From the NCBI GenBank assembly GCA_018897295.1, contig JAHILA010000014.1, forward strand, positions 67,891 to 131,890: a stretch of 64,000 bases of DNA. The letters run 5' to 3'. The notes under the pieces are model-generated. The model saw nothing but the letters and a program-made list of their open reading frames with translations, searched no databases and had not been told where the DNA came from. Of this stretch, positions 20,388 through 49,347 are shown one piece after another. This DNA comes from Patescibacteria group bacterium. GTDB lineage: Bacteria; Patescibacteriota; Minisyncoccia; RBG-13-40-8-A. The translations under genes and the position numbers were made by a program. The number at the start of each line of letters is the position of its first letter. Position 1 is the first letter of the stretch.

Positions 20388-21553
20388 TGTTAAAATTCCC
20401 AGAAAATTTTTATTGGGGCACAGCTACATCTGCATATCAAGTGGAAGGAGGGATAAAAAATGATTGGACCTGCCTTGCCGGCAGGCAGGGTGTAGCCGGG
20501 GAAAAATTTGATGCTGGAATTTGTTGCGACCATTACAATCGGTTTGAAGAGGATTTTAATTTAGCAAAAGAGATAAATAATAATGCCCACCGATTTTCAA
20601 TTGAGTGGGCTCGTATTGAACCCGAGAAAGGAAAATTTGACCAAAAAGAAATTGAGCATTACAGAAAAGTAATTTTGGCGCTTAAAGAAAGAGGGCTGGA
20701 GCCGTTTGTGACTTTGTATCATTGGACTCTGCCTGTTTGGTTTGCTGAGAAGGGCGGGCCTGCCTCGCCGAGTCAAGGCGGGTGGTTGAATAAAGACGCA
20801 CCAAAAGATTTTGAAAAATTTGTTGAGAAAATAATATTAGAGTACAAGGATTTAGTTAAGTTTTGGATTACTTTAAATGAGCCGAATGTTTATGTTTCGC
20901 ATTGTTATTTGCGCGGCGACTGGCCGCCATTCGAGAAAAATTACAGCAATTCCCAAAAGGTTTTAAACCAGTTGGTCGAAGCGCATAAATTAGCTTATAA
21001 AAAAATTCACGAAATCTCTCCTCGTGCTATAGTCGGCATAGCTAAGAATAATATTTGGTATCGCGGTATCATAGAATTAGTTTTAAATTATAAATGGAAT
21101 CATTGGTTTTTAAACGAGATTAAGAATTATCAGGATTTTATTGGTTTAAATTTCTATTTTAGTTCTTCTTTTTTAAATTTTATTTTTAAAAACAGGAATG
21201 TTAGTGATCTTGGATGGGGAATTGTGCCAGAAGGGATTTATCACGTTTTAAAAGATTTGAAAAAATACCAGAAACCGATTTACATTACGGAAAACGGCTT
21301 GGCTGATGCCAAGGATGAAAAACGGGCAAAATTCATTATTGAGCATTTAAAATGGGTTCATAAAGCAATTGGAGAAGGAGTTGATGTGCGCGGATATTTC
21401 CATTGGTCGTTATTGGATAATTTTGAGTGGGATAAAGGATTTGAGCCACATTTTGGCTTGATTGAAATTGATTATAAAACTCTTCAACGAATTCCGCGCC
21501 CAAGCAGTAAGGTTTACGCGGGAATTTGTAAGAATAATGGAATAAATTTATGA
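20387..21553 (+). CDS. glycoside hydrolase family 1 beta-glucosidase
   Basis: YQVEGG, TLNEPN (acid/base Glu) and YITENG (nucleophile Glu) GH1 motifs; contains two in-frame GC palindromes. Confidence 0.8.
   Translation: MLKFPENFYWGTATSAYQVEGGIKNDWTCLAGRQGVAGEKFDAGICCDHYNRFEEDFNLAKEINNNAHRFSIEWARIEPEKGKFDQKEIEHYRKVILALKERGLEPFVTLYHWTLPVWFAEKGGPASPSQGGWLNKDAPKDFEKFVEKIILEYKDLVKFWITLNEPNVYVSHCYLRGDWPPFEKNYSNSQKVLNQLVEAHKLAYKKIHEISPRAIVGIAKNNIWYRGIIELVLNYKWNHWFLNEIKNYQDFIGLNFYFSSSFLNFIFKNRNVSDLGWGIVPEGIYHVLKDLKKYQKPIYITENGLADAKDEKRAKFIIEHLKWVHKAIGEGVDVRGYFHWSLLDNFEWDKGFEPHFGLIEIDYKTLQRIPRPSSKVYAGICKNNGINL
20468..20500. repeat. GC palindrome copy (CCTGCCTTGCCGGCAGGCAGG) in frame in the GH1 gene
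   Basis: Encodes CLAGRQGVAGE; CCTGCC/GGCAGG arms. Confidence 0.55.
20752..20785. repeat. GC element copy (GGGCGGGCCTGCCTCGCCGAGTCAAGGCGGGTGG) in frame in the GH1 gene
   Basis: Encodes GGPASPSQGGW; shares GAGTCAAGGCGGG with the copy at 25568. Confidence 0.55.
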
Positions 21554-27584: not shown

Positions 27585-28058
27585 ATGAAAAAAAGACCGA
27601 GCTGGGATGAAACTTTTATGGCGATGGCTGAGAATATTGCCGATAGATCGGCATGTATTCTCTATCAGGTTGGCGCAGTTTTTGCCAAGGAGAAACAATT
27701 TTTACAAGTAGGATTTAATGGTCCTACCAGAGGGGGAGATAATCATTGTAGTGAAATTGGCTGCGCTAAAAAGGTTAATGATGTGATAATGCCTTCTGGT
27801 TCAAAAAAATGTAGGGGAGCTCATGCTGAGATGAATGGCATTGTGAATGCTGCCAGAAATGGAGTGGGTCTTGAAGGTTCAACTGTTTATTGTACTTTGT
27901 CTCCTTGTTACGATTGTGCCAAACACCTTGTGAATCTTGGAATTAAGAGATTCGTTTACAAAATCAAATATGAGGAGGAATGGCCGCAAGTCAGTAAACT
28001 TTTTCAAGAAAAGAAAATCAAATTGGAAAAATTTCAGAGAGGAGGAAAAAATGATTGA
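27585..28058 (+). CDS. dCMP deaminase (cytidine/deoxycytidylate deaminase family)
   Basis: HAEMNGIVNAA and SPCYDCAKHL zinc-binding motifs; strong SD AGGAGG upstream. Confidence 0.8.
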   Translation: MKKRPSWDETFMAMAENIADRSACILYQVGAVFAKEKQFLQVGFNGPTRGGDNHCSEIGCAKKVNDVIMPSGSKKCRGAHAEMNGIVNAARNGVGLEGSTVYCTLSPCYDCAKHLVNLGIKRFVYKIKYEEEWPQVSKLFQEKKIKLEKFQRGGKND

Positions 28059-28746
28059 CAGATGGAAGTATTTAAGAAAGGGTTTATTCAGGAGTGTAGA
28101 ACCGTTAGTCGAGTTGGTGGCTATCTCTAAGCCGGTTGGAAGGTTTGTTGATTTGTGCATTACCGAAACCCTGCCTGGTTTTACTGCTCGGGTAAGTCAT
28201 GAATCCAAAGGAACCCAGGATGATGATCTGCGGTTGAATCGGGATTTGATCAAAAAGAGGCATCATACGCCTTTGGAATCCGTTTGTTTCACGTTTCTTG
28301 TTTCCGGCATTACGAAAAGCCTTCAGAACCAATGGGTAAGACATCGCATCGGCGTGGGATGGACGTACCGGAGTACAAGATTTGTCCCGGCTAGCGAGAA
28401 CAATTTCATCTACTGTACTTACGACTACGTCAATGATGAACAAAAAGTACGGAAACTCCTGGCAATCGACGAAGAAAAAGCGAAGAAAGCAATTGAAGAT
28501 TACGAAGAAAAACGGAGACTCGGCGCGACCAAGCAAGACAGCAGAAAAATTATGCCAGTTTTCTGGAATACGCCATGCTATTTCTACTGCAATGTCTGTT
28601 CTCTGCGATATTTCTTCAATCTGCGCCTTGCCAAAGATGCGGAATGGGAAATCCGCAGAATGGCCAAGTTAATGTTTGAAATCGTCATCAAGGAAGTTCC
28701 TTCTCTTTTTGAAGATTTCATTGAATTAGCCAGAAAGGAGGACTGA
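28051..28746 (+). CDS. thyX: flavin-dependent thymidylate synthase ThyX
   Basis: RHRIGVGWTYRSTRF matches the ThyX RHR-x7-8-S motif; start chosen at the ATG preceded by GAGGAGGAAAAA rather than the ORF-track 27937 start. Confidence 0.8.
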   Translation: MIDRWKYLRKGLFRSVEPLVELVAISKPVGRFVDLCITETLPGFTARVSHESKGTQDDDLRLNRDLIKKRHHTPLESVCFTFLVSGITKSLQNQWVRHRIGVGWTYRSTRFVPASENNFIYCTYDYVNDEQKVRKLLAIDEEKAKKAIEDYEEKRRLGATKQDSRKIMPVFWNTPCYFYCNVCSLRYFFNLRLAKDAEWEIRRMAKLMFEIVIKEVPSLFEDFIELARKED

Positions 28747-28824: not shown

Positions 28825-30288
28825 ATGAATAAGTATGAACCTACAATTGGGCTGGAGATTCACGTTGAATTAAAAACAAAGACAAAAATGTTTTGTTCTT
28901 GTTTGAACGACCCTCTGGAAAAAGAAGCAAATAAAAATATTTGTCCGATTTGTACTGCTCAGCCAGGGAGTTTGCCTGTTATTAACGAAGAAGCAATTTA
29001 CAGTGTAATAAAAGCAGGATTGGCTTTAAACTGCAAAATTGCAGAGAAAACTTGGTTTGAAAGAAAGAATTATTTTTACCCTGATTTGCCAAAAGGTTAT
29101 CAGATTACGCAATTTGAAGCTCCTTTATGTTTTAAGGGAGAATTGAATAATATTAAAATCAGGAGAATACATTTGGAAGAAGATACTGGAAGATTAATGC
29201 ATGACAAAGGCGATCTACCTGCCGGTAGGCAGGGATATTCTTTAGTTGATTATAATCGCGCTGGCATGCCTTTAATGGAACTAGTTACAGAGCCGGACAT
29301 CCATTCTGCTGAACAGACAAAGAATTTTGCCCAAGAATTGCAATTAATTTTAAGATATCTGGGAATTTCCGATGCTGATATGGAAAAGGGACAGATGCGC
29401 GTGGAAGCAAATATAAGTTTAAATATGGGCACAAAAGTTGAAGTGAAAAACCTTAATTCATTCAAGAGCGTTGAAAAAGCAATTGAATACGAGATTATCA
29501 GGCAGCAAAGGATTTTGGAAAAAGACGACCTGCCTGCCGGTAGGCAAGGTAAGGTAGAACATGAAACAAGAGGATGGAATGACGCGAAGCAGGAAACATT
29601 CTCCCAGAGAATAAAGGAAACATCTGATGATTATCGTTATTTCCCAGAGCCGGATTTGCCGCCACTAGACATTAAAGCTGAATTGATTAAGAAATTGCAG
29701 GCAGAAATTCCTGAGTTGCCGCAAGCAAGAAGGAAAAGATTTAAAAGAGAGTATAAATTACCAGAAAAAAGCGCAGAAGTATTGGTGAATTTTAAATATT
29801 TGGCTGATTTTTTCGAGCACGCAGTAAGCGAGCTTAATGCTTGGCTAAAGTCGGGCAAGATTAAAACCGATATCAATAGATTGATAATTTTAAGCTCCAA
29901 TTATATTATTACTGAGTTTCCAAAATTTGTTTCTACAAGTCGGGAGATTAAAATAACTGCGGAAAATTTTGCAGAATTGATTTATTTGACTTTTATCGGC
30001 GAGGTTTCCTCAAGCGGGACGCAGGAAGTTTTAAAAGAAATGTTTAGAACTGGCGCAGACCCTTCGCAAATTATTGAATCTAAAAACCTGAAGCAATTAA
30101 GCAAAGAAGGGGACTTGGATAAGATTGCGGAGAAAATAATAAAAAACAATCCCCAGCCAGTTGAGGATTACAAGCAAGGAAAGGAAACCGTATTGCAGTT
30201 TTTAGTTGGTCAGGCAATGCGCGAGACCAAAGGCAAAGCCAATCCCGAGATAGTTGCCAAGATATTGCGGGATATATTGACAAAATGA
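28825..30288 (+). CDS. gatB: Asp-tRNA(Asn)/Glu-tRNA(Gln) amidotransferase subunit B
   Basis: YEPTIGLEIHVELKTKTKMFCSC N-terminus and C-terminal GatB/YqeY domain; two in-frame LPAGRQG insertions. Confidence 0.9.
   Translation: MNKYEPTIGLEIHVELKTKTKMFCSCLNDPLEKEANKNICPICTAQPGSLPVINEEAIYSVIKAGLALNCKIAEKTWFERKNYFYPDLPKGYQITQFEAPLCFKGELNNIKIRRIHLEEDTGRLMHDKGDLPAGRQGYSLVDYNRAGMPLMELVTEPDIHSAEQTKNFAQELQLILRYLGISDADMEKGQMRVEANISLNMGTKVEVKNLNSFKSVEKAIEYEIIRQQRILEKDDLPAGRQGKVEHETRGWNDAKQETFSQRIKETSDDYRYFPEPDLPPLDIKAELIKKLQAEIPELPQARRKRFKREYKLPEKSAEVLVNFKYLADFFEHAVSELNAWLKSGKIKTDINRLIILSSNYIITEFPKFVSTSREIKITAENFAELIYLTFIGEVSSSGTQEVLKEMFRTGADPSQIIESKNLKQLSKEGDLDKIAEKIIKNNPQPVEDYKQGKETVLQFLVGQAMRETKGKANPEIVAKILRDILTK
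29215..29234. repeat. GC palindrome copy (CCTGCCGGTAGGCAGG) in gatB
   Basis: Encodes DLPAGRQGY. Confidence 0.6.
29527..29549. repeat. GC palindrome copy (CCTGCCTGCCGGTAGGCAAGG) in gatB
   Basis: Encodes DDLPAGRQGK, about 310 nt from the first copy. Confidence 0.6.
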
Positions 30289-30708: not shown

Positions 30709-32580
30709 TCAGGCGAATTTTTTAAACCAGGTAAGCTGGCGCTTGGCATATTGAAGAGTATGGAGTTTAATCGTCTCGATGATTTGTTTTCTGTTCTCGG
30801 AGTTTTTCCATTCTGCGTAGCCAATAGTATTTTTCAATACTGTTGTCCAGCCATATTTTTTGACTAATTTATTCACTTCTTTTTCCAGCCCCATTTTAAT
30901 CATTTTATCAACCCTTTTATCTATTAATTTTTTCAGCTCTGCTGAAGATTTTTCAATTTTAATATACTGGACACTGAATCGGGGACTGCTTTTTAATTGA
31001 GGTATTGGTTTATTGGTTTTAATGATAATCTCCAACGCCCTGATTAATCTGCGTTTGTTTTTAGCATCAATATTTTTTGCTCGATTCGGGTCGAGTTTTT
31101 TTAATTGTTTAAATAATTCTTTCTCGGTTTTCTTTTCTAATTCTTTTCTTAATTTCCAATCAGGTTTAACTTCTGGAATTACTATTTCATTAACCATTGC
31201 CTGAATATAAAATCCAGTGCCGCCGCAAATAATCGGTGTTTTTCCTTGTTTATAAATTTTATCTATTGCTTGTAATGCCAATTTTTTGTACTCTGTGACA
31301 CTAATCTGTTTTTGGGGATTAGCAATATCTATTATATGGTGAGGGATGTCTTGCATTTCTTTCTTCGTGGTCTTGCCTGTGCCAATATCCATTCCTTTAT
31401 AAACTTGCCTTGAATCAGCTGAAATAATTTCACCATTTATTTTTTTAGCCAGTTTGATGGCAAAAGTGGATTTTCCCGAAGCAGTTGGTCCAATAATGAC
31501 AATCAGTTTAGGTTTTGTTTTGGTTAATTTATTTAAAACTCTCCACCTCCTTACCTTTTCTTTCCATAGGACATCGTCTTTAAATCTGCTGGCCAACGTT
31601 CCGGGCCTGGTTGAATATTTATTAATATAAGCCATGTCAAATCCGACTTTTTTGAATAATCCGACTGTATTCTCAAATTGTTTTTTTGTTTCGCCGGGAA
31701 AACCCACAATTACATCTGTGGTAATTTTTGCTTGAGGGATTTTTGCACGGATTTTTCTAATTAAATTAAGATATTTTTCTGTTGTGTATCCGCGATTCAT
31801 CTTTTTCAGAATTTCATTGTCTCCACTTTGAACCGGTAAATGGATTTCTTTGCTGATTTTTGGCGATTCAGTGATTACATCAATCAATTCTGCGGAGAAA
31901 TCTTTAGGATGGGAAGTAAGAAATTTTACTGTAAAATCACCCGGGATTCCGGAAATAAGTTTAAGCAATATTGGAAAAGTAGTTTTGCCACCCTGCGGGT
32001 GGTCAGCCGTGGGCTGATCTTTATATGAATTAACGTTTTGTCCGAGTAAAATAATCTCTTTATATCTATTTTTAATGAGATTTTTTATTTCAAAAATTAT
32101 ATTTTTTGTTGATCTTGAAACCTCTCTGCCGCGGGTGTAGGGGACTGCGCAGTAAGAGCAGAAATTGTTGCAGCCGGTCATTATGGGTACAAATGCTGAT
32201 TTTTGATTTGTCTGCCTCGCTGGCAGGCAGGCCTGCCTGCCAGCGAGGCAGGAGTATTTTGGTTTCATCTCCAGATATTTTTTCCCGAGAAATTCATTGA
32301 TTGATAAAATCTCGTTAAAGAAAGATTTAAATTTAGGTTTATCTGCCTTTAAAACGCAGCCAGTTAAAATTTTCTTTGCCTTGATTTTTGCAAATTTTTT
32401 CTTTAGGCCGAAGATTCTATCAATCGCGCTTTGTCGTATAGAGCAGGCGACAACTACTATCAGGTCAGCATTTTCCATTTTATCCGTATTCCTATAATTT
32501 CGTTGTTCTAAAAATGAAGCGATTCTCTCGGAATCGCTTTCATTCATTTGGCAGCCGAATGTTTTGATGTAATACCTCAT
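30709..32580 (-). CDS. bifunctional fusion: MiaB-like radical-SAM methylthiotransferase (N-terminal, no TRAM domain) plus tRNA dimethylallyltransferase MiaA (C-terminal)
   Basis: N-terminus MRYYIKTFGCQMNESDSE (MTTase N domain) and CNNFCSYCAVPYTRGRE radical SAM motif; C-half GPTASGKST P-loop and ADSRQVYKGMDIGTGK MiaA motifs. Confidence 0.75.
   Translation of the reverse strand: MRYYIKTFGCQMNESDSERIASFLEQRNYRNTDKMENADLIVVVACSIRQSAIDRIFGLKKKFAKIKAKKILTGCVLKADKPKFKSFFNEILSINEFLGKKYLEMKPKYSCLAGRQACLPARQTNQKSAFVPIMTGCNNFCSYCAVPYTRGREVSRSTKNIIFEIKNLIKNRYKEIILLGQNVNSYKDQPTADHPQGGKTTFPILLKLISGIPGDFTVKFLTSHPKDFSAELIDVITESPKISKEIHLPVQSGDNEILKKMNRGYTTEKYLNLIRKIRAKIPQAKITTDVIVGFPGETKKQFENTVGLFKKVGFDMAYINKYSTRPGTLASRFKDDVLWKEKVRRWRVLNKLTKTKPKLIVIIGPTASGKSTFAIKLAKKINGEIISADSRQVYKGMDIGTGKTTKKEMQDIPHHIIDIANPQKQISVTEYKKLALQAIDKIYKQGKTPIICGGTGFYIQAMVNEIVIPEVKPDWKLRKELEKKTEKELFKQLKKLDPNRAKNIDAKNKRRLIRALEIIIKTNKPIPQLKSSPRFSVQYIKIEKSSAELKKLIDKRVDKMIKMGLEKEVNKLVKKYGWTTVLKNTIGYAEWKNSENRKQIIETIKLHTLQYAKRQLTWFKKFA
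32212..32252. repeat. tandem inverted GC palindrome (perfect 41-nt palindrome) in frame in the miaB domain
   Basis: CTGCCTCGCTGGCAGGCAGG-C-CTGCCTGCCAGCGAGGCAG; encodes CLAGRQACLPARQ on the minus strand. Confidence 0.65.
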
Positions 32581-34298
32581 TTTATTTTCTTGATAAATCC
32601 TTCAATTTTCATCATTCCGATATCTCCTTTTTCTCTGGTTCTTACGCGAACAGATTTATTTTTTATTTCTTCATCTCCAACTACAAGCATATAAGGGATT
32701 TTTTGTATTTCTCCCTCGCGGATTTTTTTAGAAACAGTTTCGTTTTCATTCTTTACTTTAATTCTTAAACCATGAGTCATAAGTTTTTCTTTGATTTGCT
32801 CGGCATATTTCGCGTGGCGGTCTCCAATAGGAATAACATAAACCTGGATAGGGGAGAGCCAGAATGGCAAAGCACCAGCATAATTTTCAAGCAAAACCCC
32901 GATGAATCTTTCTATTGAACCAAGCAGGGCTCGATGAACCATATATGGCCTTTGTTTTTTGCCTTTGTCGTCAATATAAGTCAAATCAAATTTTTCCGGC
33001 AGATTAAAGTCAAACTGGACAGTAGTGCATTGCCATTCCCTTCCTAATGAATCTTTGATTTTGATATCAATTTTCGGCCCGTAAAAAACCCCTCCGCCTT
33101 TATCAACTTGGTATTTTAGATTCAATTTATTTAAGACATTTTTTAGAGTATTGGTTGCTTTTTCCCAATTCTTCGGAGTTCCTACATATTTTTCCGGCCG
33201 AGTAGCCAGATAAATATTATATTCTTTAAATCCAAATTCTTTTAGAAGTTTGATGCCGAATTTTACAGCAGCCATCATTTCATCAGCCAATTGGTCCGGG
33301 GTGCAGATTATGTGCGCATCATCCTGGGTAAATCCTCTGACTCGGGTCAAGCCATGCAGAACTCCGGAACGTTCAAACCTATAAACCGTACCGAGTTCTG
33401 CCCAGCGTACGGGCAAATCTCTGTAGCTTCGGCTTTTGGTCTTATAGATTTTCATGTGGAACGGGCAGTTCATCGGCTTGATTAAGTATTTATCGCCTTC
33501 AACTTGCATTGGGCCGAACATATTTTCTTTGTAAAAATCAGTATGGCCTGATGTTTGCCAGAGTTTTATCCGGCCGATATGGGGAGTGTCGATTATTTCA
33601 TAGCCGTTTTTTAGATGTTCATTAACCCAGTAATTTTCAATTACTCCCTTTAAAGCCGTTCCCTTAGGATGCCAGAGGATTAGTCCCGGTCCGACTTCTT
33701 CGTCAATGCTGAATAAATCCAGTTTTTGGCCGATTAAACGATGGTCGCGCTTTTCCGCTTCTTTGATTTGTTTCAGATAAGCATCCAACTCTCCTTTAGT
33801 ATTAAAAGCAATTCCGTAAATTCTTTGCAGCATGGGATTTTTTTCATCTCCGCGCCAATAAGCGCCAGCGATTTTTGTCAGCTTAAATGCATCAGGATTA
33901 ATTTCCTTTGTGGATTTTACGTGCGGGCCTTTGCATAAATCAGTAAAATCTCCGCTAATATAAATAGTTGCGTTTTTGCTGTCGAGGTCTTTTATAAGCT
34001 CCAATTTATATGGCTGGTTTTTGAATAATTTTATAGCTTGTGACTTGGGGACTAATTTTCTTTTGAATTCAATATTTTGTTTGATTAGCTCGCGCATTCT
34101 TTTTTCAATCTTCGGTAGATCTTCTGGAACTAAGGTCGCCCTCGCCTTCGCTCCGCGAGCTTCGGCGGGCAAATGGAAGTCGTAGTAAAATCCGTTCTCA
34201 ATTGTCGGGCCAATAGCAAATTTAGTTCCAGGAAATAATTCCTGAACTGCATATGCCATAATGTGGCTTATTGAATGTCGTATTGTATCAATTTTCAT
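32577..34298 (-). CDS. thrS: threonyl-tRNA synthetase
   Basis: TGS/editing N-region, class II core motifs, anticodon-binding C-domain; 4-bp overlaps with flanking genes. Confidence 0.9.
   Translation of the reverse strand: MKIDTIRHSISHIMAYAVQELFPGTKFAIGPTIENGFYYDFHLPAEARGAKARATLVPEDLPKIEKRMRELIKQNIEFKRKLVPKSQAIKLFKNQPYKLELIKDLDSKNATIYISGDFTDLCKGPHVKSTKEINPDAFKLTKIAGAYWRGDEKNPMLQRIYGIAFNTKGELDAYLKQIKEAEKRDHRLIGQKLDLFSIDEEVGPGLILWHPKGTALKGVIENYWVNEHLKNGYEIIDTPHIGRIKLWQTSGHTDFYKENMFGPMQVEGDKYLIKPMNCPFHMKIYKTKSRSYRDLPVRWAELGTVYRFERSGVLHGLTRVRGFTQDDAHIICTPDQLADEMMAAVKFGIKLLKEFGFKEYNIYLATRPEKYVGTPKNWEKATNTLKNVLNKLNLKYQVDKGGGVFYGPKIDIKIKDSLGREWQCTTVQFDFNLPEKFDLTYIDDKGKKQRPYMVHRALLGSIERFIGVLLENYAGALPFWLSPIQVYVIPIGDRHAKYAEQIKEKLMTHGLRIKVKNENETVSKKIREGEIQKIPYMLVVGDEEIKNKSVRVRTREKGDIGMMKIEGFIKKIK
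34135..34171. repeat. GC element copy in the thrS N-terminal region
   Basis: GCCCGCCGAAGCTCGCGGAGCGAAGGCGAGGGCGAC on the coding strand; encodes LPAEARGAKARATL. Confidence 0.5.
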
Positions 34299-37573: not shown

Positions 37574-37888
37574 ATGCCAGTACCAAAACAAAGACATACC
37601 AAAAGCAGAAGAAATAGGCGAAGATCTCATCTTAAATTAAAGAAGAGAACTTTAGGTAGCTGTCCGAAATGTGGAGAGCCGATTTTGCCGCATCATATCT
37701 GCGCTTTTTGCGGATTTTATAATGGTGTAGAAAGAATTGATGTTCTGGCGAAATTAGAGAAGAAAGCCAAGAAGAAAAAGGAAAAAGAACTAAAAGAACA
37801 CGAAGGAGAAGTTAAAGAAACAGCAAAAGCCATGCCTACCGGCAGGCAGGTCAAACCATTAAGTTTAGAAGAATTGTCTAAAAAATAA
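37574..37888 (+). CDS. rpmF: 50S ribosomal protein L32 with a long K/E-rich C-terminal extension
   Basis: [22 protein letters not shown] and CPKCG...CAFCG zinc ribbon; 104 aa versus about 60 typical. Confidence 0.85.
37834..37850. repeat. GC palindrome copy (CCTACCGGCAGGCAGG) in the rpmF tail
   Basis: Encodes MPTGRQV. Confidence 0.5.
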
Positions 37889-41837: not shown

Positions 41838-42086
41838 TTAAACACATAATTAATTAACCCCAGTAGTACAAACCTTTGGTTTGACTACGGGGCAAGCATA
41901 ATTCTTATGTAAAAAGAGCGAACAATTAAACGTACTTTAAAACAGAGTTTAGTTTTGGAATTTAGTTCAAAAATTGAGCTCTGTTTTAAATTGTTCTTTA
42001 AAATAGAAATATGTAATTGTACAGTAAGTTTGTGTGAGTTATTAGAGATCGAATCTTTTATAGTTGTTCTGATACAACTAAAATTA

Positions 42087-43560
42087 TTATTGAGAGTTTG
42101 ATCCTAGCTCAGGACGAACGCTGGCGGCGTGGATAAGGCATGCAAGTCGAATGGGTTTAGACCCATGGCGAACGAGTTAGTAACACGTAGGTACATCCCT
42201 CTGACTTGGGCATAACCCCGCGAAAGCGGGGATAATTCCCAATGGTGTCCCGATTTATCGGGACTAAAGGTTCCGGTGCAAATCGGAATCGGTGAGAGAG
42301 TGGCCTGCGGCCTATCAGCTAGTTGGTGAGGTAATAGCTTACCAAGGCTATGACGGGTAGGGGGCGTGAGAGCGTGTTCCCCAACGAGGGCACTGAGATA
42401 CGGGCCTTACTCCTACGGGAGGCAGCAGTCGAGAATCTTCCACAATGGGCGAAAGCCTGATGGAGCGACGCCGCGTGCATGAAGAAGTCCTTCGGGATGT
42501 AAAATGCTTTTATAAGGGAGCAATTTTTTGAGTGTACCTTATGAATAAGGGGTTGCTAAACTCGTGCCAGCAGCAGCGGTAATACGAGTGCCCCAAGCGT
42601 TGTCCGGAATTACTGGGCGTAAAGCGTCTGTAGGGGGTTTGATACGTCTTCTGTTAAATTTCGATGCTCAACATCGGAGCTGCAGGGGAAACGGTCAGAC
42701 TAGAGAGTGTGAGAGGCTGATGGAACTTAAGGAGTAGGGGTGAAATCCGTTGATACTTTAGGGAACACCAAAGGCGAAGGCATTCAGCTGGTGCATTTCT
42801 GACCCTGAGAGACGAAAGCGTGGGGAGCAAAAAGGATTAGATACCCTTGTAGTCCACGCCCTAAACTATGAATACTAGCTGTCTGAAGTATCGACCCTTC
42901 AGGTGGCGAAGCTAACGCGTTAAGTATTCCGCCTGGGAAGTACGGTCGCAAGACTAAAACTCAAAGGAATAGACGGGAGCTTGCACAAGCGGTGGAGCGT
43001 CTGGTTTAATTCGATGATAAGCGTAGAACCTTACCAGGACTTGAAATTCTAGTGAAACCCCGATGAAAGTCGGGTCTTCTACAAGGACACTAGAACAGGT
43101 GCTGCATGGTTGTCGTCAGCTTGTGGCGTGAGTTGCTCCGTTAATTCGGGTAACAAGCGCAACCCCTGTTGTCTGTTATATGTGTCAGACGAAACTGCCC
43201 CGTGATACGGGGAGGAAGGTAGGGATGACGCCAAATCAGCATGGCCCTCTGATGTCCTGGGCAACACAGGCGCTACAATGGCCGATACAATGGGTTGCCA
43301 AGCCGTAAGGTGGAGCCAATCCCATCAAAGTCGGTCCCAGTTCGGATTGGGGTCTGCAATTCGACCCCATGAAGTTGGAATCGCTAGTAATCGCAGATCA
43401 GCTACGCTGCGGTGAATACGTTCTCAAGCTTTGTACTCACTGCCTGTCACACCAGAGAAGCCGGGGGCACCTGACATTCTCGCATTGCGGGACCTAAGGT
43501 GAATTCGGTGACTAGGGTGAAGTCATAACAAGGCATCCGTAGGGGAACCTGTGGATGGAA
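42087..43560 (+). rRNA. 16S ribosomal RNA (3' boundary uncertain; canonical anti-SD not present after helix 45)
   Basis: AGAGTTTGATCCTAGCTCAG 5' end, internal universal blocks, 3' GTAGGGGAACCTGTGGATGGA; 515-site variant GTGCCAGCAGCAGCGGTAA. Confidence 0.9.
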
Positions 43561-43671
43561 AATATTTTTACTTAGTAACCATTTTGGATGCTAAGGAGAG
43601 TCGATTGAATCCGCCTTTGCGTAAAGCTTCGGCGGACAAGAGGGATTTAGATTTTTGTCCAAATAAAAATC

Positions 43672-43704
43672 AGGCCCGCTTCGACTCGCGAAGCGAGGCG
43701 AGTA
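43672..43704. repeat. GC palindrome element downstream of the 16S body
   Basis: GCCCGCTTCGACTCGCGAAGCGAGGCGAG (GCTTCG-ACTCG-CGAAGC). Confidence 0.5.
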
Positions 43705-43734
43705 TCAGGATAACTATAAAAGATTTGATTCAAA

Positions 43735-43761
43735 AAATCCTCCGCGTTGCGGGGGATTTTT
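43735..43761 (+). terminator. terminator-like hairpin containing the only CCTCC near the 16S 3' end
   Basis: AATCCTCCGCG-TTG-CGGGGGATTTTT. Confidence 0.45.
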
Positions 43762-43832
43762 AGTTCTCTATTGCATATTGTATTATTTTAGCTGTATAAT
43801 AGAATTAGTAATTATTAAATAAAAAAAACATT

Positions 43833-43991
43833 ATGGCAGATGTAGCATACTGCGTAAAATGCAGAAAAAAAGAAGAGATGAAAAATGCAGTAGAGGTTAA
43901 AATGAAAGGGAAGGGGGGAGACAGAAGGGCATTGAAAGGAATTTGTCCTGTTTGTGGAACTGGAATGTTCAGGATTTTAGGCAAAGCTTAA
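43833..43991 (+). CDS. small zinc-ribbon protein (52 aa), candidate
   Basis: CVKC-x24-CPVC; below the ORF-track size cutoff; followed by a hairpin AATCCCGCG-ACG-CGGGATT; no SD. Confidence 0.35.
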   Translation: MADVAYCVKCRKKEEMKNAVEVKMKGKGGDRRALKGICPVCGTGMFRILGKA

Positions 43992-44048
43992 AAGATTTTA
44001 AAAAATCTTATCAAAATTAATCCCGCGACGCGGGATTAATTTTGAGAA

Positions 44049-44120
44049 GGGCGTGTAGTTCACCGGTAGAACGCTTCACTGATAATGAAGAAGTAGAAGG
44101 TTCGACTCCTTCCACGCCCA
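44049..44120 (+). tRNA. tRNA-Ile (anticodon GAT)
   Basis: Manual cloverleaf: GGGCGTG/CACGCCC acceptor, anticodon loop CTGATAA, T-arm GAAGG-TTCGACT-CCTTC. Confidence 0.8.
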
Positions 44121-44143
44121 CTCAACTCGTCTTAATTTTGTTC

Positions 44144-44214
44144 GGGCCTATAGTTTAATGGTAGAACACCGCATTTGCAATGCGGAAATAGCAGTCCGAT
44201 TCTGCTTAGGTCCA
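44144..44214 (+). tRNA. tRNA-Ala (anticodon TGC)
   Basis: G3:U70 identity pair, anticodon loop TTTGCAA; T-loop slightly atypical. Confidence 0.7.
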
Positions 44215-44218
44215 CAAT

Positions 44219-44247
44219 TAAAAAATCTCGCTATGCGAGATTTTTTA
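44219..44247. terminator. bidirectional Rho-independent terminator (tRNA cluster / murC)
   Basis: AAAAATCTCGC-TAT-GCGAGATTTTTT. Confidence 0.75.
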
Positions 44248-44262
44248 ATATTTTAATTCATC

Positions 44263-45567
44263 TTATTTTTTCATTTCTTCTCCAATCTTATATACATCTC
44301 CCGCGCCGAGAAAGAGAATAATACTATTTTTATCAGTATTTTGTTCCAAATAGTTTTTTATTTCGTCAAAACTACTGATGTATTTCGCATTGACGGTCTG
44401 CATTGCTTTAACTAAATCTTTGGAATGGATTGTGTGGTCATCTTTTTCACGCGTAGCATAGATATCAGTGATAATAACTTCATTTGCCAAATTAAAACTT
44501 TCTGCAAAATCATTTAATAAAAGTTTTGTGCGCGAATATAAATGCGGTTGGAAAACAACAATCAGTTTATAGTTTGGATATTGTTCGTTGCAGGTTTTTA
44601 AAGTTGCTTTTATTTCTGTGGGGTGGTGGCCGTAGTCATTGTAAAGTAATGCGCCATTTTTTGCATTGCCCATAAATTCAAACCTGCGCCAGGTGCCAGT
44701 ATAATTTTTTAGGATTTTTAAAGCGGTTTTTTCTTCTATTCCGCACAATTTGGCCGCGTCAAACGCGGCTTGCGCATTTTTAAGATTGTGTTCGCCGGGA
44801 ATGGATAATTTAATATCGGCTTTTCCTTCATTATAATCAATTATCTTTGCCAATTGGTTTATTTTTTTTGCTTTTTTAATTGCTTTGTCCGTATTTTCGT
44901 CATTTAAATCGCAGATAATATATTCTTTTGTTTTGGCGATTAATTTTGCAAAAGCATTTTGGATGTTTTCAATATTTTCATAATAATCCAAATGGTCACT
45001 ATCAATATTTAAAATTACGAGAATATTCGGAGTCAGGTTCAAGAATGATTCTTTATATTCGCAGGCTTCAACAATAAAATATTTACTGCTTCCTAAAACA
45101 AAATTATCTTCCTGTTTTTTTAAAAATCCGCCGACAACAACAGTAGGGTCTAAGTTTCCATAAATCATCAATTCAGCAAGCATGGAAGTAGTGGTTGTTT
45201 TGCCGTGGGCTCCGGATATGGCAATGGTATACATATCTTTGGAAATCAATCCAAGGATTTCTGGATACGAATAAATTGGAATGTTTAGCGTTCTGCCATA
45301 AATTAATTCTGGATTATCCTCGGTTATGGCAGGGGAGTAGATAATCATATTTGTATCTGAAGGCAGATTTTCTTTTTTGTGGTCAATAAAAACCTTCCCC
45401 CCGATTTTTTCAATCCGTTCAGTCGTTTTTCCCGCGGAAATATCAGAACCAGTAACCTTTATACCTTTTAACCGCGCCATTCTGGCAATTGCAGACACTC
45501 CGACACCCCCAATTCCGATAAAATGTATTTTCTTAACGTGGTCGAACATAAGTTTAAATTTTATCAC
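44263..45567 (-). CDS. murC: UDP-N-acetylmuramate--L-alanine ligase
   Basis: IHFIGIGGVGVSAIA N-terminal Rossmann, GAHGKTTTTSM P-loop, Mur ligase C-domain. Confidence 0.85.
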   Translation of the reverse strand: MIKFKLMFDHVKKIHFIGIGGVGVSAIARMARLKGIKVTGSDISAGKTTERIEKIGGKVFIDHKKENLPSDTNMIIYSPAITEDNPELIYGRTLNIPIYSYPEILGLISKDMYTIAISGAHGKTTTTSMLAELMIYGNLDPTVVVGGFLKKQEDNFVLGSSKYFIVEACEYKESFLNLTPNILVILNIDSDHLDYYENIENIQNAFAKLIAKTKEYIICDLNDENTDKAIKKAKKINQLAKIIDYNEGKADIKLSIPGEHNLKNAQAAFDAAKLCGIEEKTALKILKNYTGTWRRFEFMGNAKNGALLYNDYGHHPTEIKATLKTCNEQYPNYKLIVVFQPHLYSRTKLLLNDFAESFNLANEVIITDIYATREKDDHTIHSKDLVKAMQTVNAKYISSFDEIKNYLEQNTDKNSIILFLGAGDVYKIGEEMKK

Positions 45568-45629
45568 AGAGAATCTTTGTTGCCAAATTAATTTTGTGCT
45601 ATAATTAATTATGTTATAATTAAATTAAA

Positions 45630-45678
45630 GGTCGACCTGCCTGCAACGTCAGCAAACTGTCTTGCGTGGCGGGCAGGG
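45630..45678. repeat. GC palindrome element in the divergent intergenic region
   Basis: GACCTGCCTGCAACG...CGTGGCGGGCAGGG. Confidence 0.45.
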
Positions 45679-45703
45679 AATTAAGAATTAAAATTATTTT
45701 ATT

Positions 45704-46372
45704 ATGTTAGAAATATTACTTGATTCATTGACGCAAATTTGGCAGAGCTTTATTGAGTTCTTACCGACATTATTGGCATCTTTAATCGTTTTCATTGTAG
45801 GCTGGTTGATTGCTATATTCTTGGGCAAGATGGTTAACCGAATGATAAAAGCTATAAAACTTGATCTGCTTTTAGAAAGGCTTAATTTTCAGAAAGCATT
45901 AGCCAAAGCAAGATTAAAATTGGACTCTCCGAAGTTTTTTGAAGAACTTGTAAAATGGTTTTTCATTATCGTTTTCTTAATGACAGCAGTTGAGATTTTA
46001 GGATTAGTAGAGGTAACTCTGTTTTTAAAGGGCATCCTTTATTACATACCTAATGTTGTGATTGCCGCTATCATGCTTTTGGCCGCAGCTATTGTTGCGA
46101 AGTTTATGCAGAAATTAGTGAAAGCCAGTGCTGATACTGCCGGCCTTTCATCAGCAAATGCGATTTCCGGAGTTGTGAAGTGGGCAATTTTGATTTTCGG
46201 TTTTGTAATTGCTTTAACCCAATTAGGAATTGCCGCAGCTTTAATCCAGACAATCATTATTGGAATTATTGCTATGATTACGATTGCAGGCGGTCTTGCA
46301 TTCGGCCTAGGAGGAAAGGATCTGGCAGCTAATATTCTGGACAAAATTAGGCAGGATTTAAGCGATAGATAG
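45704..46372 (+). CDS. membrane protein with conserved TM-helix repeats (MscS/CmpX-like family, tentative)
   Basis: Repeated hydrophobic helices with G/A-rich faces; no enzymatic motif. Confidence 0.4.
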   Translation: MLEILLDSLTQIWQSFIEFLPTLLASLIVFIVGWLIAIFLGKMVNRMIKAIKLDLLLERLNFQKALAKARLKLDSPKFFEELVKWFFIIVFLMTAVEILGLVEVTLFLKGILYYIPNVVIAAIMLLAAAIVAKFMQKLVKASADTAGLSSANAISGVVKWAILIFGFVIALTQLGIAAALIQTIIIGIIAMITIAGGLAFGLGGKDLAANILDKIRQDLSDR

Positions 46373-46383
46373 TAATAGAGGAC

Positions 46384-46412
46384 TTGACACGCGATTTTTT
46401 ACCATTTACAAT
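46384..46412 (+). promoter_or_regulatory. candidate 23S rRNA promoter
   Basis: GAGGACTTGACA-N17-TACAAT about 200 nt upstream of the 23S 5' end. Confidence 0.55.
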
Positions 46413-47136
46413 GGTAGTGTTGTTAGTTTATATGAGAAAAAACCAAAAACAATTTATAAAAAAGAGCGGTTGATAAAACCAGGTATTTTCATACCCGTGG
46501 ATGTCAAACCGCTAAAAGCGGTTTTTTCAATCCTGAACTTTGAAAATTGAATATGTATAGCAAGTAATAAAAGTAATAATAAGTAGTAGTATCTATAAAT
46601 TGCCAGCTATATTAAGCAGGTTATATATTAAGGGTGTATGGTGGATGCCTTGACATTAGAAGACGAAGAAGGACGTGGCGTAACTGCGATAAGCCTCGGG
46701 GAGGTGTGTAGCGACCTTAGATCCGGGGATGTCCGAATGGGGAAACCCAATATAGTGATAAACTATATTATCCCGACTTTATTGTTGGGAGGTGAACTCG
46801 GCGAAGTAAAACATTTCAGTAGCCGGAGGAACAGAGAAAAACTTTATTCCCCAAGTAGTGGCGAGCGAAAAGGGAAGAGCCCAAACCTGATGGTCCCGCA
46901 TTTGTGGGATTATTAGGGGTAGTAAGATAGTGACGTCGGGAGAAATCCCGGGGAGTGAATACAAAACTAAGACTTCCTTAGTTGAAAGGGATGGAAAGCC
47001 CTACCGAAGAAGGTAATAGTCCTGTAAGCGAAAAGGGTCTTATACTCCTAGTCATTAATCTTGAGTACCGCGAGAACATGCAGTCTCGCGGGAATCATCC
47101 TGAACTATCTAGGAAAGGCTAAATACTTCTAATGAT

Positions 47137-47175
<39 letters not shown>

Positions 47176-48447
47176 GCCCGACAAGGGCAGTGAAATAGTA
47201 CCTGAAATCATACACTTACAAAGAGTCGGAGCCCCGCATTAGCGGGGTGACGGCGTGCTTTTTGCAGAACGAACCAACGAGTTTACCGTAGACTGTTTTG
47301 TCTAAGTCCGTAAAGGACGGAGGCGTAGGGAAACCGAGTGTTAATAGCGCGTTTTATAACAGTATGCGTAAGACCCGAAGCCAGGTGAGCTACCCATGGC
47401 CAGGATGAACCCCGATGAAAATCGGGGGGAGGTCCGAACCCATCGGCCGTGCAATACCGTGGGATGAGCTGTGGGTTGGAGTGAAAAGCTAATCGAACCT
47501 GGTAATAGCTGGTTCTCCTCGAAATATGTTTAGGCATAGCCTCTTATTTTTCTCCTTAGGGGTAGAGCACTAAATGGGCTGAGGTGGCGCAAGCCTACTC
47601 ACTCAATTAAACTCCGAATACTAAGACAGATAATAAGGGAGTAAGACTGTGGGGGCTAAGCTCCATAGTCAAAAGGGAAACAGCCCAGATCGTCATCTAA
47701 GGTCCCAAAACTAAGTTAAGTGGGAAAAGAAGTGCCTCGTCTTATACAGATGGGATGTTGGCTTAGAAGTAGCCATCATTTAAAGAGTGTGTAATAACTC
47801 ACCATTCTATTTATGACGAAGTGCGCTGAAAATGTAACGGGGCTCAAACTTAGTACCGAAGATACGAATTTCTCTCCGATTTATCGGAGAGGAGTGGTAG
47901 AGGAGCATTTCTTGTGCTGTGAAGTCATTTCGTGAGGAATGGTGGAGCGCAAGGAAGAGAGAATGTTGGTATGAGTAACCGCAAGTCTGATGCGAAATCA
48001 GACCACCGAAAGCCCAAGGATTCCTTGGCAATGTAAATCAACCAAGGGTTAGGCGGGCCTAAGGCAATCCCGAAAGGGGTAGTCGATGGACAGTCGGTTA
48101 ATATTCCGACCCTTCTGTATTTTTTTATGGAGTGACGGAGTTTAGTAGATAGGGCAGATTATTGGATTTTTGTCTGTATATTAAGAAGCTAGGCTAGGTA
48201 AATCCGGTTTAGAATACTTCAAGATATGCAGGAAGTTTCGATTTCGATCGGGATTACCCTATTGAGCAGACTTCCAAGAAAAACTTCTAAAATAAGAATA
48301 CAGGATCCGTACCGCAAACCGACACAGGTGGGCAGGGCGAGAAGCCCAAGGTGAACGGGTTAACCCTCGTTAAGGAACTCGGCAAAATAGCGGCCGTAAG
48401 TTCGCAATAAGGCCTTCCCCCGCTTAGCGGGGGACGCAGCTAAAGAT

Positions 48448-48478
<31 letters not shown>

Positions 48479-49347
48479 CCTGCTAACTCGTAAGAGGATG
48501 TATAGGGGCTGACACTTGACCAGTGCTGGAAGGTTAATGGTGGGGGTGTCTCGACCTTGCGTCGGGATGCTCACTGCTTGAAGCCCCAGTGAACGTCGGC
48601 GATAACTATAATCGTCCTAAGGTACCGAAATTCCTTGGCATGTAAGTTATGTCCTGCAGGAAAAGTGTAACGACTGGAGAACTGTCTCAACGAGGAGCCC
48701 GGTGAAAATGCAGTGTCAGTGAAGATGCTGACTACCTGCGACAAGACGAAAAGACCCCAGGAGCTTTACTATAACTTGGTATTGTTTTAATGTTTTTGAT
48801 GCGTAGCGTAGACGGTAGGATTTGAAGGTCGCCTCTCGGGGCGGCTGGATCCGACAATGAAACACCGTTCTTTAAAAATGTTAAAACTAACCCCTCCGTA
48901 ACAGAGAGGGACAGTGCCAGGCGGGTAGTTTTAGTGGGGCGCTAGCCTCCTAAAGAGTAACGGAGGCGTTTATTAAGGTCGACTAGCTCCGGATGGAAAT
49001 CGGAGTGATAGTGTAAAGGCAAAAGTCGGCTTTACTGCAAGACTGACAGGTCGCGCAGTTGCGAAAGCAGAACTTAGTGAACCGACTCTGGTTAATAGAA
49101 TCGGAGAAGATCATCGGACAAAAGCTACCCTGGGGATAACAGGCTGGTAGGCGCTAAGAGTTCATATCGACGCGTCTGTTCGGCACCTCGATGTCGGCTC
49201 ATCTCATCCTGGAGGTGGAGAAGCTTCCAAGGGTTTGGCTGTTCGCCAATTAAAGAGGTACGTGAGCTGGGTTCAAACCGTCGTGAGACAGGTTGGACTC
49301 CTATCTGTCGTAGGCGTAGATACTTGAGAGACTTTGTCCCTAGTAAG

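What the first reader, a model, noticed from the sequence alone, without database searches (positions are those of the whole stretch)
30709..32580. MiaB-MiaA fusion protein lacking the TRAM domain
One 623-aa ORF encodes the MiaB methylthiotransferase N-terminal and radical SAM domains, then (where the TRAM domain would be) continues directly into a complete MiaA with P-loop GPTASGKST. Fusing the i6A37 synthase to the ms2i6A-forming enzyme could channel the tRNA substrate, with MiaA replacing TRAM for tRNA binding.
Basis: partly seen in the sequence, partly recalled or inferred. Interest (0 to 1): 0.55.

Follow-up and report, generated by a model that had tools for sequence, protein, structure and literature searches.

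The report
TRAM-less MiaB fused to MiaA
One real, conserved gene in this ultra-small (Patescibacteria) bacterium joins the two enzymes that build the ms2i6A modification next to the tRNA anticodon, and it has lost the RNA-clamp (TRAM) domain the second enzyme normally carries; this is a neat variant of well-known enzymes, not a new kind of system.

Summary
ORF 30709-32580 (-) encodes 623 aa with a MiaB N-terminal domain, a radical-SAM core and a complete MiaA. A 9-residue linker stands where the ~70-residue TRAM domain would be. No TRAM is detectable with Pfam, NCBIfam, PDB alignment or a lineage-specific TRAM profile.

It is not an assembly artefact. The identical protein is in three NCBI records. 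Of the 120 nearest protein clusters, 117 (down to ~50% identity, Patescibacteria/Nealsonbacteria) share the architecture. All six Fe-S cysteines and the MiaA P-loop and catalytic motifs are conserved.

- Fusions that keep TRAM exist (14 of the 20 fused clusters among 50%-identity representatives).
- TRAM-less stand-alone MiaBs are common (34 of 150 representatives). Several have no miaA nearby.
- Bootstrapped trees indicate at least three independent TRAM losses and repeated fusion or fission.

Most likely this is a bifunctional A37 prenylation and methylthiolation enzyme, co-transcribed with dnaE-thrS. TRAM loss is a recurrent reduction in this group, and MiaA tethering may help but is not required.

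The searchable literature holds no description of it. Databases label it simply MiaA or MiaB. I rate it a new variant of a known kind, of modest interest.

The parts
30709..32580 (-). Whole fused gene miaB(deltaTRAM)-miaA, 623 aa plus stop codon
   Evidence: ORF list; Pfam and NCBIfam domain hits; 100% identical NCBI protein P0001
32314..32577 (-). MTTase N-terminal (UPF0004) domain, aa 2-89, with the auxiliary [4Fe-4S] cysteines C10, C46 and C75
   Evidence: PF00919 E 7.3e-20; the cysteines are conserved in all architecture classes
32212..32251 (-). [quoted passage not shown]
   Evidence: the repeat finder I2, 100% complementary; absent from the 79%-identical homologue P0003 and shorter in P0002; pLDDT <50 for aa 112-125
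31660..32190 (-). Radical-SAM core, aa 131-307, with C137-x3-C141-x2-C144 at nt 32149-32172
   Evidence: PF04055 E 5.7e-28; the cysteines are invariant; Foldseek match to MiaB 7mjz E 7e-30
31990..32016 (-). Second GC-rich in-frame insert (QPTADHPQG, aa 189-197) in a variable loop of the radical-SAM domain
   Evidence: GC-rich island 31984-32021; P0002 and P0003 have a shorter loop, KDNKINF
31522..31659 (-). C-terminal part of the MiaB core (aa 308-353), ending in the helix ...KEKVRRWRVLNKL that normally leads into TRAM
   Evidence: Alignment to 7mjv/7mjz ends at query aa 348-352, chain residue 379-380 of 457; helix 339-353 in the AF2 model
31507..31533 (-). Fusion junction and linker, aa 350-358 (NKLTKTKPK), where the ~70-aa TRAM block is missing
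   Evidence: Junction alignment of BA, BTA, B and BT proteins; spacing from R345 to the P-loop is 19 aa here and 17-38 aa in 109 TRAM-less fusions, against 83-105 aa in 13 TRAM-containing fusions
30712..31506 (-). Complete MiaA (tRNA dimethylallyltransferase) domain, aa 359-623; P-loop GPTASGKS at nt 31468-31491; DSRQVY motif with D389; insertion domain ~aa 470-525; lacks the ~22-aa C-terminal tail found in most relatives
   Evidence: PF01715 1-242/243, E 1.4e-69; TIGR00174 254 bits against a 148.65 cut-off; 3d3q alignment; Foldseek 3foz/2zm5 TMt 0.76; family consensus continues past WFKK
32577..34298 (-). Upstream thrS (threonyl-tRNA synthetase); its stop overlaps the fusion's ATG by 4 nt (ATGA), so the two are probably co-transcribed and translationally coupled
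   Evidence: ORF list and sequence; thrS-miaB synteny is also seen in L001 and L089
34295..37510 (-). dnaE (DNA polymerase III alpha), overlapping the thrS start by 4 nt; probable first gene of the dnaE-thrS-miaBA transcription unit
   Evidence: ORF list; the best promoter-like site on this strand lies upstream at 37546-37517, but the number of such sites is not above the shuffle expectation

Best explanation
This is a genuine bifunctional tRNA-A37 hypermodification enzyme of a Patescibacteria (CPR) bacterium. The C-terminal MiaA domain transfers a dimethylallyl group from DMAPP to N6 of A37 in tRNAs that read UNN codons, giving i6A37. The N-terminal MiaB core has an auxiliary [4Fe-4S] cluster in the UPF0004 domain and a radical-SAM [4Fe-4S] cluster. 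It uses two SAM molecules to add a methylthio group at C2, giving ms2i6A37. The fusion arose from a miaB-miaA gene pair, which still exists as adjacent or overlapping genes in relatives. It mainly couples expression and places the two consecutive activities close together. Loss of TRAM, the non-specific RNA clamp of methylthiotransferases, is a separate and recurrent reduction in this group of bacteria. The remaining two MiaB domains carry the determinants for A36 and i6A recognition, and they evidently suffice, with or without help from MiaA. In this clade the 9-residue linker forces MiaA to sit where TRAM would attach, so it may add tRNA affinity, but that is inferred.

Shown here: the architecture, the absence of TRAM, conservation of the catalytic residues, the distribution of the architecture, and the separability of fusion and TRAM loss.

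Inferred: both activities, the tRNA substrates, and any hand-over of tRNA between the domains.
For: Both halves have the expected domains and motifs. The MiaB model scores 353 bits, against 251 for MtaB and 200 for RimO. The six Fe-S cysteines are conserved in all four architecture classes, and the MiaB and MiaA halves contain many invariant columns across 72 fused proteins. The AF2 model is confident within domains (pLDDT 84.6), and its halves match solved MiaB and MiaA structures. 117 of the 120 nearest clusters are TRAM-less fusions and 3 keep TRAM. Among 50%-identity representatives there are 14 fusions with TRAM, 6 without, 34 TRAM-less stand-alone MiaBs and 90 canonical MiaBs. Split miaB|miaA pairs occur with and without TRAM. 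TRAM-less stand-alone genes lacking a nearby miaA also occur. In the concatenated NJ bootstrap trees, {L005, L088, P0133} has 100% support, {L004, L006, P0132, L084} has 100%, and the query clade has 90%. This indicates at least three TRAM losses and repeated fusion or fission. [quoted passage not shown]
Against: There are no biochemical data for any TRAM-less MiaB. The MiaB equivalog score is just below NCBI's cut-off (353.4 against 355.3), because TRAM is missing. pTM is only 0.59, so the relative orientation of the domains is unknown. The gene-context samples are small: 6 informative TRAM-less and 3 TRAM-containing stand-alone genes. The trees are neighbour-joining only, and the sister group of the query clade is unresolved. 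Whether this organism can make or import DMAPP could not be checked from 64 kb.
Confidence: 0.55

Rival explanations
1. One reading: MiaA has functionally replaced TRAM. The tethered MiaA domain, with its anticodon-stem-loop clamp, holds the tRNA and hands the freshly made i6A37 directly to the MiaB active site (substrate channelling). The TRAM-less core would depend on MiaA in cis, or in trans in relatives where the genes are split.
For: The linker is so short (19 aa from R345 to the P-loop; 17-38 aa in 109 relatives) that MiaA must sit where TRAM attaches. Several TRAM-less miaB genes have miaA directly adjacent, overlapping or one gene away: L001, L003, L005, L084 and L088. The unsupported whole-set NJ tree places the query clade among TRAM-containing forms, some of them fused, so TRAM may have been lost after fusion. 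[quoted passage not shown]
Against: TRAM-less stand-alone MiaBs with no miaA in 3-4 kb flanks exist: P0147, P0163, P0208 and L053. In this small sample, linkage to miaA is no more frequent for TRAM-less genes (2 of 6) than for TRAM-containing ones (1 of 3). Most fused clusters at 50% identity keep TRAM (14 of 20). MiaA and MiaB both need A37 flipped into their own pocket, so simultaneous binding is not obviously possible (inference from the known complexes 2zm5/3foz and 7mjv). The AF2 model gives no confident inter-domain geometry (pTM 0.59).
Confidence: 0.3
2. The MiaB half is a relic or has a changed function. Without TRAM it would no longer modify tRNA, and would either be inactive or act on another substrate, so only the MiaA half would do its classical job.
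For: TRAM is part of the canonical three-domain definition of methylthiotransferases (PMC10702137). The MiaB equivalog score falls just below its cut-off. PGAP names the protein only MiaA.
Against: All six cluster cysteines and dozens of other MiaB-core residues are invariant across fused proteins down to ~50% identity, and also in stand-alone TRAM-less forms. This indicates purifying selection on catalysis. The best subfamily match is clearly MiaB (353 bits, against 251 for MtaB and 200 for RimO). Persistent linkage to miaA fits the i6A-to-ms2i6A pathway.
Confidence: 0.08
3. It is an artefact: two separate genes (miaB and miaA) were joined by an assembly or sequencing frameshift, or TRAM was deleted by misassembly.
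For: Close relatives do have split genes (L001, L003, L005), so a single indel could interconvert the two states. Raw reads were not available.
Against: The identical 623-aa protein is found under three NCBI accessions and on three contigs. 117 independent 90%-identity clusters from JGI, ENA, Logan and NCBI assemblies have the same continuous frame, with differing linker sequences. The linker lengths form a tight class, distinct from that of the TRAM-containing fusions.
Confidence: 0.02

Closest known systems
MiaB (tRNA-i6A37 C2-methylthiotransferase; e.g. Bacteroides uniformis MiaB, PDB 7mjv-7mjz; Thermotoga maritima and E. coli MiaB)
   Same: It has the N-terminal UPF0004 domain with three cysteines and the radical-SAM core with CxxxCxxC. 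It is 36-37% identical to 7mjz over ~390 aligned columns. The MiaB subfamily model is the best match.
   Different: The whole C-terminal TRAM domain (~70-77 residues) is missing and a MiaA domain follows instead. A 13-residue palindrome-encoded loop is inserted between the first two domains.
MiaA (tRNA dimethylallyltransferase; PDB 3d3q, 2qgn/3exa, 2zm5/3foz; yeast Mod5 3eph)
   Same: It is a full-length IPPT domain with the P-loop, the DSRQVY motif and the insertion domain. It is 42-43% identical to S. epidermidis MiaA, with TMt 0.76 to E. coli MiaA bound to tRNA.
   Different: It is attached by its N-terminus to the MiaB core through a 9-residue linker. It lacks the ~22-residue C-terminal tail present in most relatives.
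MiaB-TRAM-MiaA fusions in related Patescibacteria (e.g. P0107, P0110, P0116, P0121; 700-750 aa)
   Same: They have the same domain order and the same two enzymes, at 46-56% identity.
   Different: They retain TRAM, with 83-105 aa between R345 and the P-loop, against 19 aa here.
Stand-alone TRAM-less MiaB of Patescibacteria or Microgenomates (e.g. P0147, P0155, P0177, P0208; L053 from Shapirobacteria)
   Same: The MiaB core ends at the same point (…RRWxILxxLINKK), and the cysteines are conserved.
   Different: They are not fused. miaA is adjacent in some and absent from the neighbourhood in others.
MnmC (bifunctional enzyme for the last two steps of mnm5(s2)U34 synthesis), recalled from my own knowledge and not tested here
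   Same: It is another case of two consecutive tRNA-modification activities on the same nucleotide fused into one polypeptide, which occurs as separate proteins in some bacteria.
   Different: The chemistry and folds are unrelated, and no loss of an RNA-binding domain is involved.

Membership tests
MiaB / MTTase family (radical-SAM methylthiotransferases) | N-terminal UPF0004 (MTTase) domain with three conserved cysteines for the auxiliary [4Fe-4S] cluster | tested here: met
   PF00919 at aa 2-89, E 7.3e-20; C10, C46 and C75 are conserved in the family
MiaB / MTTase family (radical-SAM methylthiotransferases) | Radical-SAM core with the CxxxCxxC motif | tested here: met
   PF04055 at aa 131-307; C137, C141 and C144 are invariant; structural match to 7mjz, E 7e-30
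MiaB / MTTase family (radical-SAM methylthiotransferases) | C-terminal TRAM domain (third domain of the canonical architecture, PMC10702137) | tested here: not met
   There is no PF01938 hit at E<=1. The MiaB profile and the 7mjv alignment are truncated at ~367/437 and ~380/457. A lineage-specific TRAM HMM scores negative. Only 19 aa lie between R345 and the MiaA P-loop.
MiaB / MTTase family (radical-SAM methylthiotransferases) | MiaB-subfamily (i6A-specific) signature rather than MtaB or RimO | tested here: inconclusive
   TIGR01574 scores 353.4 bits, just under its 355.3 cut-off because TRAM is absent. It is still ~100 bits above MtaB (251.4) and ~150 above RimO (199.6). The general MiaB/RimO model TIGR00089 scores 361 bits against a cut-off of 251.
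MiaB / MTTase family (radical-SAM methylthiotransferases) | Catalysis of ms2i6A37 formation on i6A-tRNA | not testable with these tools
   This needs anaerobic reconstitution and LC-MS of nucleosides.
MiaA (tRNA dimethylallyltransferase, IPPT) | Full-length IPPT domain scoring above the curated cut-offs | tested here: met
   PF01715 covers 1-242/243 with 235 bits (cut-off 23.6). TIGR00174 scores 254.1 bits (cut-off 148.65).
MiaA (tRNA dimethylallyltransferase, IPPT) | P-loop GPTxxGK(S/T) and the conserved DSxQ(V/I)Y motif with the catalytic Asp | tested here: met
   GPTASGKS is at aa 364-371 and ADSRQVY at aa 388-394. G364, K370, D389, S390, Q392 and Y394 are invariant in 72 fused proteins. 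The assignment of the catalytic role comes from established knowledge of E. coli MiaA.
MiaA (tRNA dimethylallyltransferase, IPPT) | Core plus insertion ('swinging') domain fold that clamps the anticodon stem-loop | tested here: met
   The AF2 model matches E. coli MiaA-tRNA complexes 3foz and 2zm5 with TMt 0.76 and rmsd ~3 Å over ~281 columns.
MiaA (tRNA dimethylallyltransferase, IPPT) | Prenyl transfer from DMAPP to A37, and availability of DMAPP in the organism | not testable with these tools

The most novel reading that the evidence does not exclude
In these reduced bacteria, MiaA and the TRAM-less MiaB core would form an obligate two-step A37 'assembly line', covalent in this clade and non-covalent where the genes are split. 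MiaA's anticodon-stem-loop clamp would substitute for TRAM and pass i6A-tRNA directly to the radical-SAM site without release. That would be a natural example of tRNA channelling between modification enzymes. It would also be a natural experiment showing that TRAM is dispensable for methylthiotransferase chemistry.
Probability: 0.25. Interest if true: 0.55.

Novelty: new variant of a known kind. Interest (0 to 1): 0.36.

Why it matters
Methylthiotransferases are defined in the literature as three-domain enzymes with TRAM as the RNA-binding module. A large, conserved natural family that lacks TRAM, both fused to MiaA and free-standing, shows the domain is dispensable in vivo. It also offers ready-made constructs for asking what TRAM contributes. 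The fusion is a clean Rosetta-stone link between two consecutive steps on the same nucleotide. It could be used to test whether tRNA is handed over between modification enzymes. In practice, the protein is annotated in public databases as only MiaA or only MiaB, so pathway reconstructions for Patescibacteria will miss one of the two functions. It does not open a new field, because both enzymes and the pathway are well understood.

Tried and rejected
1. Hidden or divergent TRAM. I built a TRAM profile from 107 close relatives and ran it with filters off on the query and on all six frames of the window. It found nothing.

2. A second miaA or miaB in the window. tblastn of the fusion against the window found only the gene itself.

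3. Survey of GTDB species genomes. Only 6 Patescibacteria loci and one Atopobiaceae locus were informative, so it cannot serve as a census.

4. Taxonomy of the TRAM-containing fusions through cluster look-up. None of the records carried a name.

5. Literature. Four searches (MiaB/MiaA/fusion; Patescibacteria + tRNA modification + MiaB; Candidate Phyla Radiation + MiaA; phrases for TRAM-less methylthiotransferases) found no description of this architecture. The MiaB structure paper (Esakova 2021) is not held, so I relied on its summary in PMC10702137.

6. A candidate signature of TRAM loss, Trp at query position 346 (RRW). It is enriched in TRAM-less proteins (21 of 40) but also occurs in 14 of 101 TRAM-containing ones. 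It is neither diagnostic nor proof of a single origin.

7. tRNA substrates in the window. Only tRNA-Gln(UUG), Ile(GAU) and Ala(UGC) are present, and none reads UNN codons, so this is uninformative.

8. The Shine-Dalgarno-like AAGGAGGTG inside the junction helix (codons for KVRRW). No in-frame ATG, GTG or TTG start follows before the P-loop. I treat it as a product of codon choice for the conserved RRW, or as a relic, and not as evidence for separate translation of MiaA (read from the sequence).

9. Sister group of the query clade. It is unresolved in the bootstrapped NJ trees (<60%), so I could not decide whether TRAM was lost before or after fusion in this clade.
Full report
**Observation.** The window has a single open reading frame at 30709..32580 on the minus strand, ATG start, 623 aa.
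- Pfam finds UPF0004 (aa 2-89), Radical_SAM (aa 131-307) and IPPT (aa 392-621, E 1.4e-69). There is no TRAM hit even at E<=1.
- NCBIfam matches the MiaB equivalog TIGR01574 over aa 2-354. This covers only profile positions 1-367 of 437 and scores 353.4 bits against a cut-off of 355.3.
- NCBIfam matches the MiaA equivalog TIGR00174 over aa 359-621, scoring 254 bits against a cut-off of 148.65. MtaB (251 bits) and RimO (200 bits) score far lower than MiaB.
- Against solved structures, the alignment to Bacteroides uniformis MiaB (7mjv/7mjz, 457 aa) ends at chain residue ~380. The alignment to S. epidermidis MiaA (3d3q) begins at its residue 4, at query aa 354.
- So the last helix of the MiaB core (…KEKVRRWRVLNKL) runs through a 9-residue linker (NKLTKTKPK, nt 31507-31533) into strand 1 and the P-loop of MiaA (GPTASGKS, nt 31468-31491).

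**Is TRAM really absent, and is the fusion real?**
- I built a TRAM profile from 107 close relatives that have the domain. With all filters off it scores negative on the query. It finds nothing in the six-frame translation of the window.
- There is no room for a TRAM domain. Conserved R345 and the P-loop are 19 residues apart here.
- Across relatives, that spacing falls into two discrete classes: 17-38 aa (median 21) in 109 TRAM-less fusions, and 83-105 aa (median 93) in 13 fusions that keep TRAM.
- The exact 623-aa sequence is held under three NCBI accessions, named only 'MiaA [Patescibacteria group bacterium]'.
- Of the 120 nearest 90%-identity clusters, 117 are TRAM-less fusions and 3 keep TRAM. 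They come from JGI, ENA, Logan and NCBI assemblies and go down to ~50% identity. Linker sequences differ between relatives while the frame stays open.
- An assembly frameshift is therefore excluded for practical purposes, although raw reads were not available.

**Functional competence.**
- The six cysteines that bind the two [4Fe-4S] clusters (C10, C46, C75; C137, C141, C144) are conserved in every architecture class.
- An alignment of 72 fused proteins has many invariant columns in both halves. These include the MiaA P-loop Gly/Lys, D389-S390-Q392-Y394, and R511/R514/E517.
- An AlphaFold2 model built on that alignment is confident within domains (mean pLDDT 84.6). The inter-domain geometry is uncertain (pTM 0.59).
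- The only long disordered stretch is aa 112-125. That stretch is encoded by a palindromic insert.
- Foldseek matches the two halves to MiaB (7mjz, E 7e-30) and to E. coli MiaA bound to tRNA (3foz/2zm5, TMt 0.76).

**Comparative picture.** I searched 1.84 billion 50%-identity representatives with the fusion and classified the best 150 using profiles for the MiaB core, TRAM and MiaA:

| Architecture | Representatives |
|---|---|
| Canonical MiaB with TRAM | 90 |
| TRAM-less stand-alone MiaB | 34 |
| MiaB-TRAM-MiaA fusion | 14 |
| TRAM-less fusion | 6 |
| MiaA alone | 6 |

- Most of the TRAM-less stand-alone proteins end within 8 residues of the core, at …RRWxILxxLINKK. That is the same point as the fusion junction.
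- Loci from GTDB genomes show the intermediate states. TRAM-less miaB is followed by a separate adjacent or overlapping miaA in L001, L003 and L005. TRAM-containing miaB is followed by miaA in L002, L004, L006 and the actinobacterial locus L058.
- I made unbiased context look-ups for stand-alone genes. Among TRAM-less genes, miaA is adjacent for P0155 and one gene away for P0177. It is absent from the flanks of P0147, P0163, P0208 and L053.
- Among TRAM-containing genes, miaA is nearby for P0138 but not for P0140 or P0143.
- The samples are small, but they show no sign that TRAM loss requires miaA linkage.

**Phylogeny.** Bootstrapped neighbour-joining trees of the MiaB core, of MiaA, and of the two concatenated give the following:
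- {L005 split, L088 split, P0133 fused}, all TRAM-less, has 100% support.
- {L004 and L006 split with TRAM, P0132 fused with TRAM, L084 split without TRAM} has 100% support.
- The query's own clade of seven TRAM-less fusions has 90% support.
- TRAM was therefore lost at least three times, and fusion or fission happened repeatedly. The sister group of the query clade is unresolved, so I cannot say whether TRAM was lost before or after fusion here.

**Mechanism.** The best-supported reading is a bifunctional enzyme that carries out both steps of ms2i6A37 synthesis. It is co-transcribed with dnaE and thrS, whose stop and start codons overlap by 4 nt.
- The MiaB crystal structures show all three domains contacting tRNA (PMC10702137, summarising Esakova 2021).
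- A core that has lost TRAM can plausibly still recognise A36 and i6A37.
It is not required by the comparative data, which show fusions with TRAM and TRAM-less genes without miaA nearby.
- It also faces a steric difficulty: both enzymes must flip the same A37 into their own pocket.
- I give about 0.55 to 'bifunctional enzyme, with fusion and TRAM loss as separable events'. I give about 0.3 to 'MiaA functionally replaces TRAM and channels the tRNA'.

**Novelty.** Four full-text searches found no description of a MiaB-MiaA fusion or of natural TRAM-less methylthiotransferases. The proteins sit in public databases labelled MiaA or MiaB. Both enzymes and the pathway are textbook. I classify this as a new variant of a known kind, of modest interest. 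It is useful as a natural TRAM deletion, as a test bed for hand-over between tRNA-modification enzymes, and as an annotation caveat for Patescibacteria.

**Noticed in passing.**
- The gene carries a perfect 40-nt GC-rich palindrome in frame (32212-32251) and a second GC-rich insert (31990-32016). Both are absent or shorter in homologues that are 79-80% identical.
- The motif CYGGYRGGCARG occurs 8 times in the window against 0.04 expected. It lies inside gatB (twice), a family-1 glycosyl hydrolase gene, the L32 gene and this gene, each time encoding '…AGRQ…'. One further hit, at 59386, encodes [12 protein letters not shown], which I recognise as a conserved RpoB motif and take to be native.
- This looks like a family of small palindromic elements that insert in frame into housekeeping genes, reminiscent of Rickettsia palindromic elements.
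- The rRNA genes are interrupted. A Mur-ligase gene on the opposite strand lies between tRNA-Ala and the 23S rRNA gene.

Noticed in passing
window 32212-32251 and 31990-32016 (inside the fusion ORF); 20469-20489; 29219-29233 and 29526-29548 (gatB); 37836-37850 (L32 gene 37574-37888); 35044-35066 (dnaE); 34130-34174 (thrS): There is a family of short GC-rich palindromes in an otherwise ~36% GC genome, with core CCTGCC…GGCAGG. The motif CYGGYRGGCARG occurs 8 times against 0.04 expected. The elements sit in frame inside housekeeping genes and encode peptides such as LPAGRQG, CLAGRQACLPARQ and MPTGRQV. The copy in the fusion gene is a perfect 40-nt palindrome. It is absent from a 79%-identical homologue and shorter in another, and it maps to a disordered loop (pLDDT <50). 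This resembles the in-frame Rickettsia palindromic elements. A literature search found no description for Patescibacteria. One motif hit (59386) encodes [12 protein letters not shown], which I recognise as a conserved RpoB motif; I take it to be native, not an insert.
   Followed up: partly
window 42086-50525: The rRNA genes are not a compact operon. The 16S gene (42086-43570) and tRNA-Ile and tRNA-Ala are followed by a 453-aa Mur-ligase ORF on the opposite strand (44266-45624). The 23S gene comes only at 46618-49342, and the 5S gene about 1 kb further on (50411-50525).
   Followed up: partly
window 31545-31557 (minus strand, codons for KVRRW at the end of the MiaB core): A perfect Shine-Dalgarno-like AAGGAGGTG lies inside the coding sequence just before the fusion junction. 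No in-frame ATG, GTG or TTG follows before the MiaA P-loop. It may be a relic of the ancestral miaB-miaA intergenic signal, or just codon choice for the conserved RRW.
   Followed up: no
L081 5130-5978 (-), L082 2630-3466 (-), L086 5373-6122 (-): In several relatives with a stand-alone TRAM-less miaB, a conserved ~250-280-aa protein without any Pfam match lies between miaB and thrS on the opposite strand. Its function is unknown.
   Followed up: partly
window 30709-30780 (C-terminus of the MiaA domain): The query and its closest relatives (P0002, P0003) end at …QLTWFKKFA. They lack the ~22-residue C-terminal tail (…DKRIxWIxNxxxAEKLxKxFL) present in most other fused and free MiaA proteins of the group.
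   Followed up: no
window 27585-28746: A dCMP-deaminase-like ORF (27585-28058, judged from its translation only) overlaps a 269-aa ORF (27937-28746). The latter's translation resembles flavin-dependent thymidylate synthase ThyX, and a Thy1 gene is also near thrS in L081. This was not examined.
   Followed up: no
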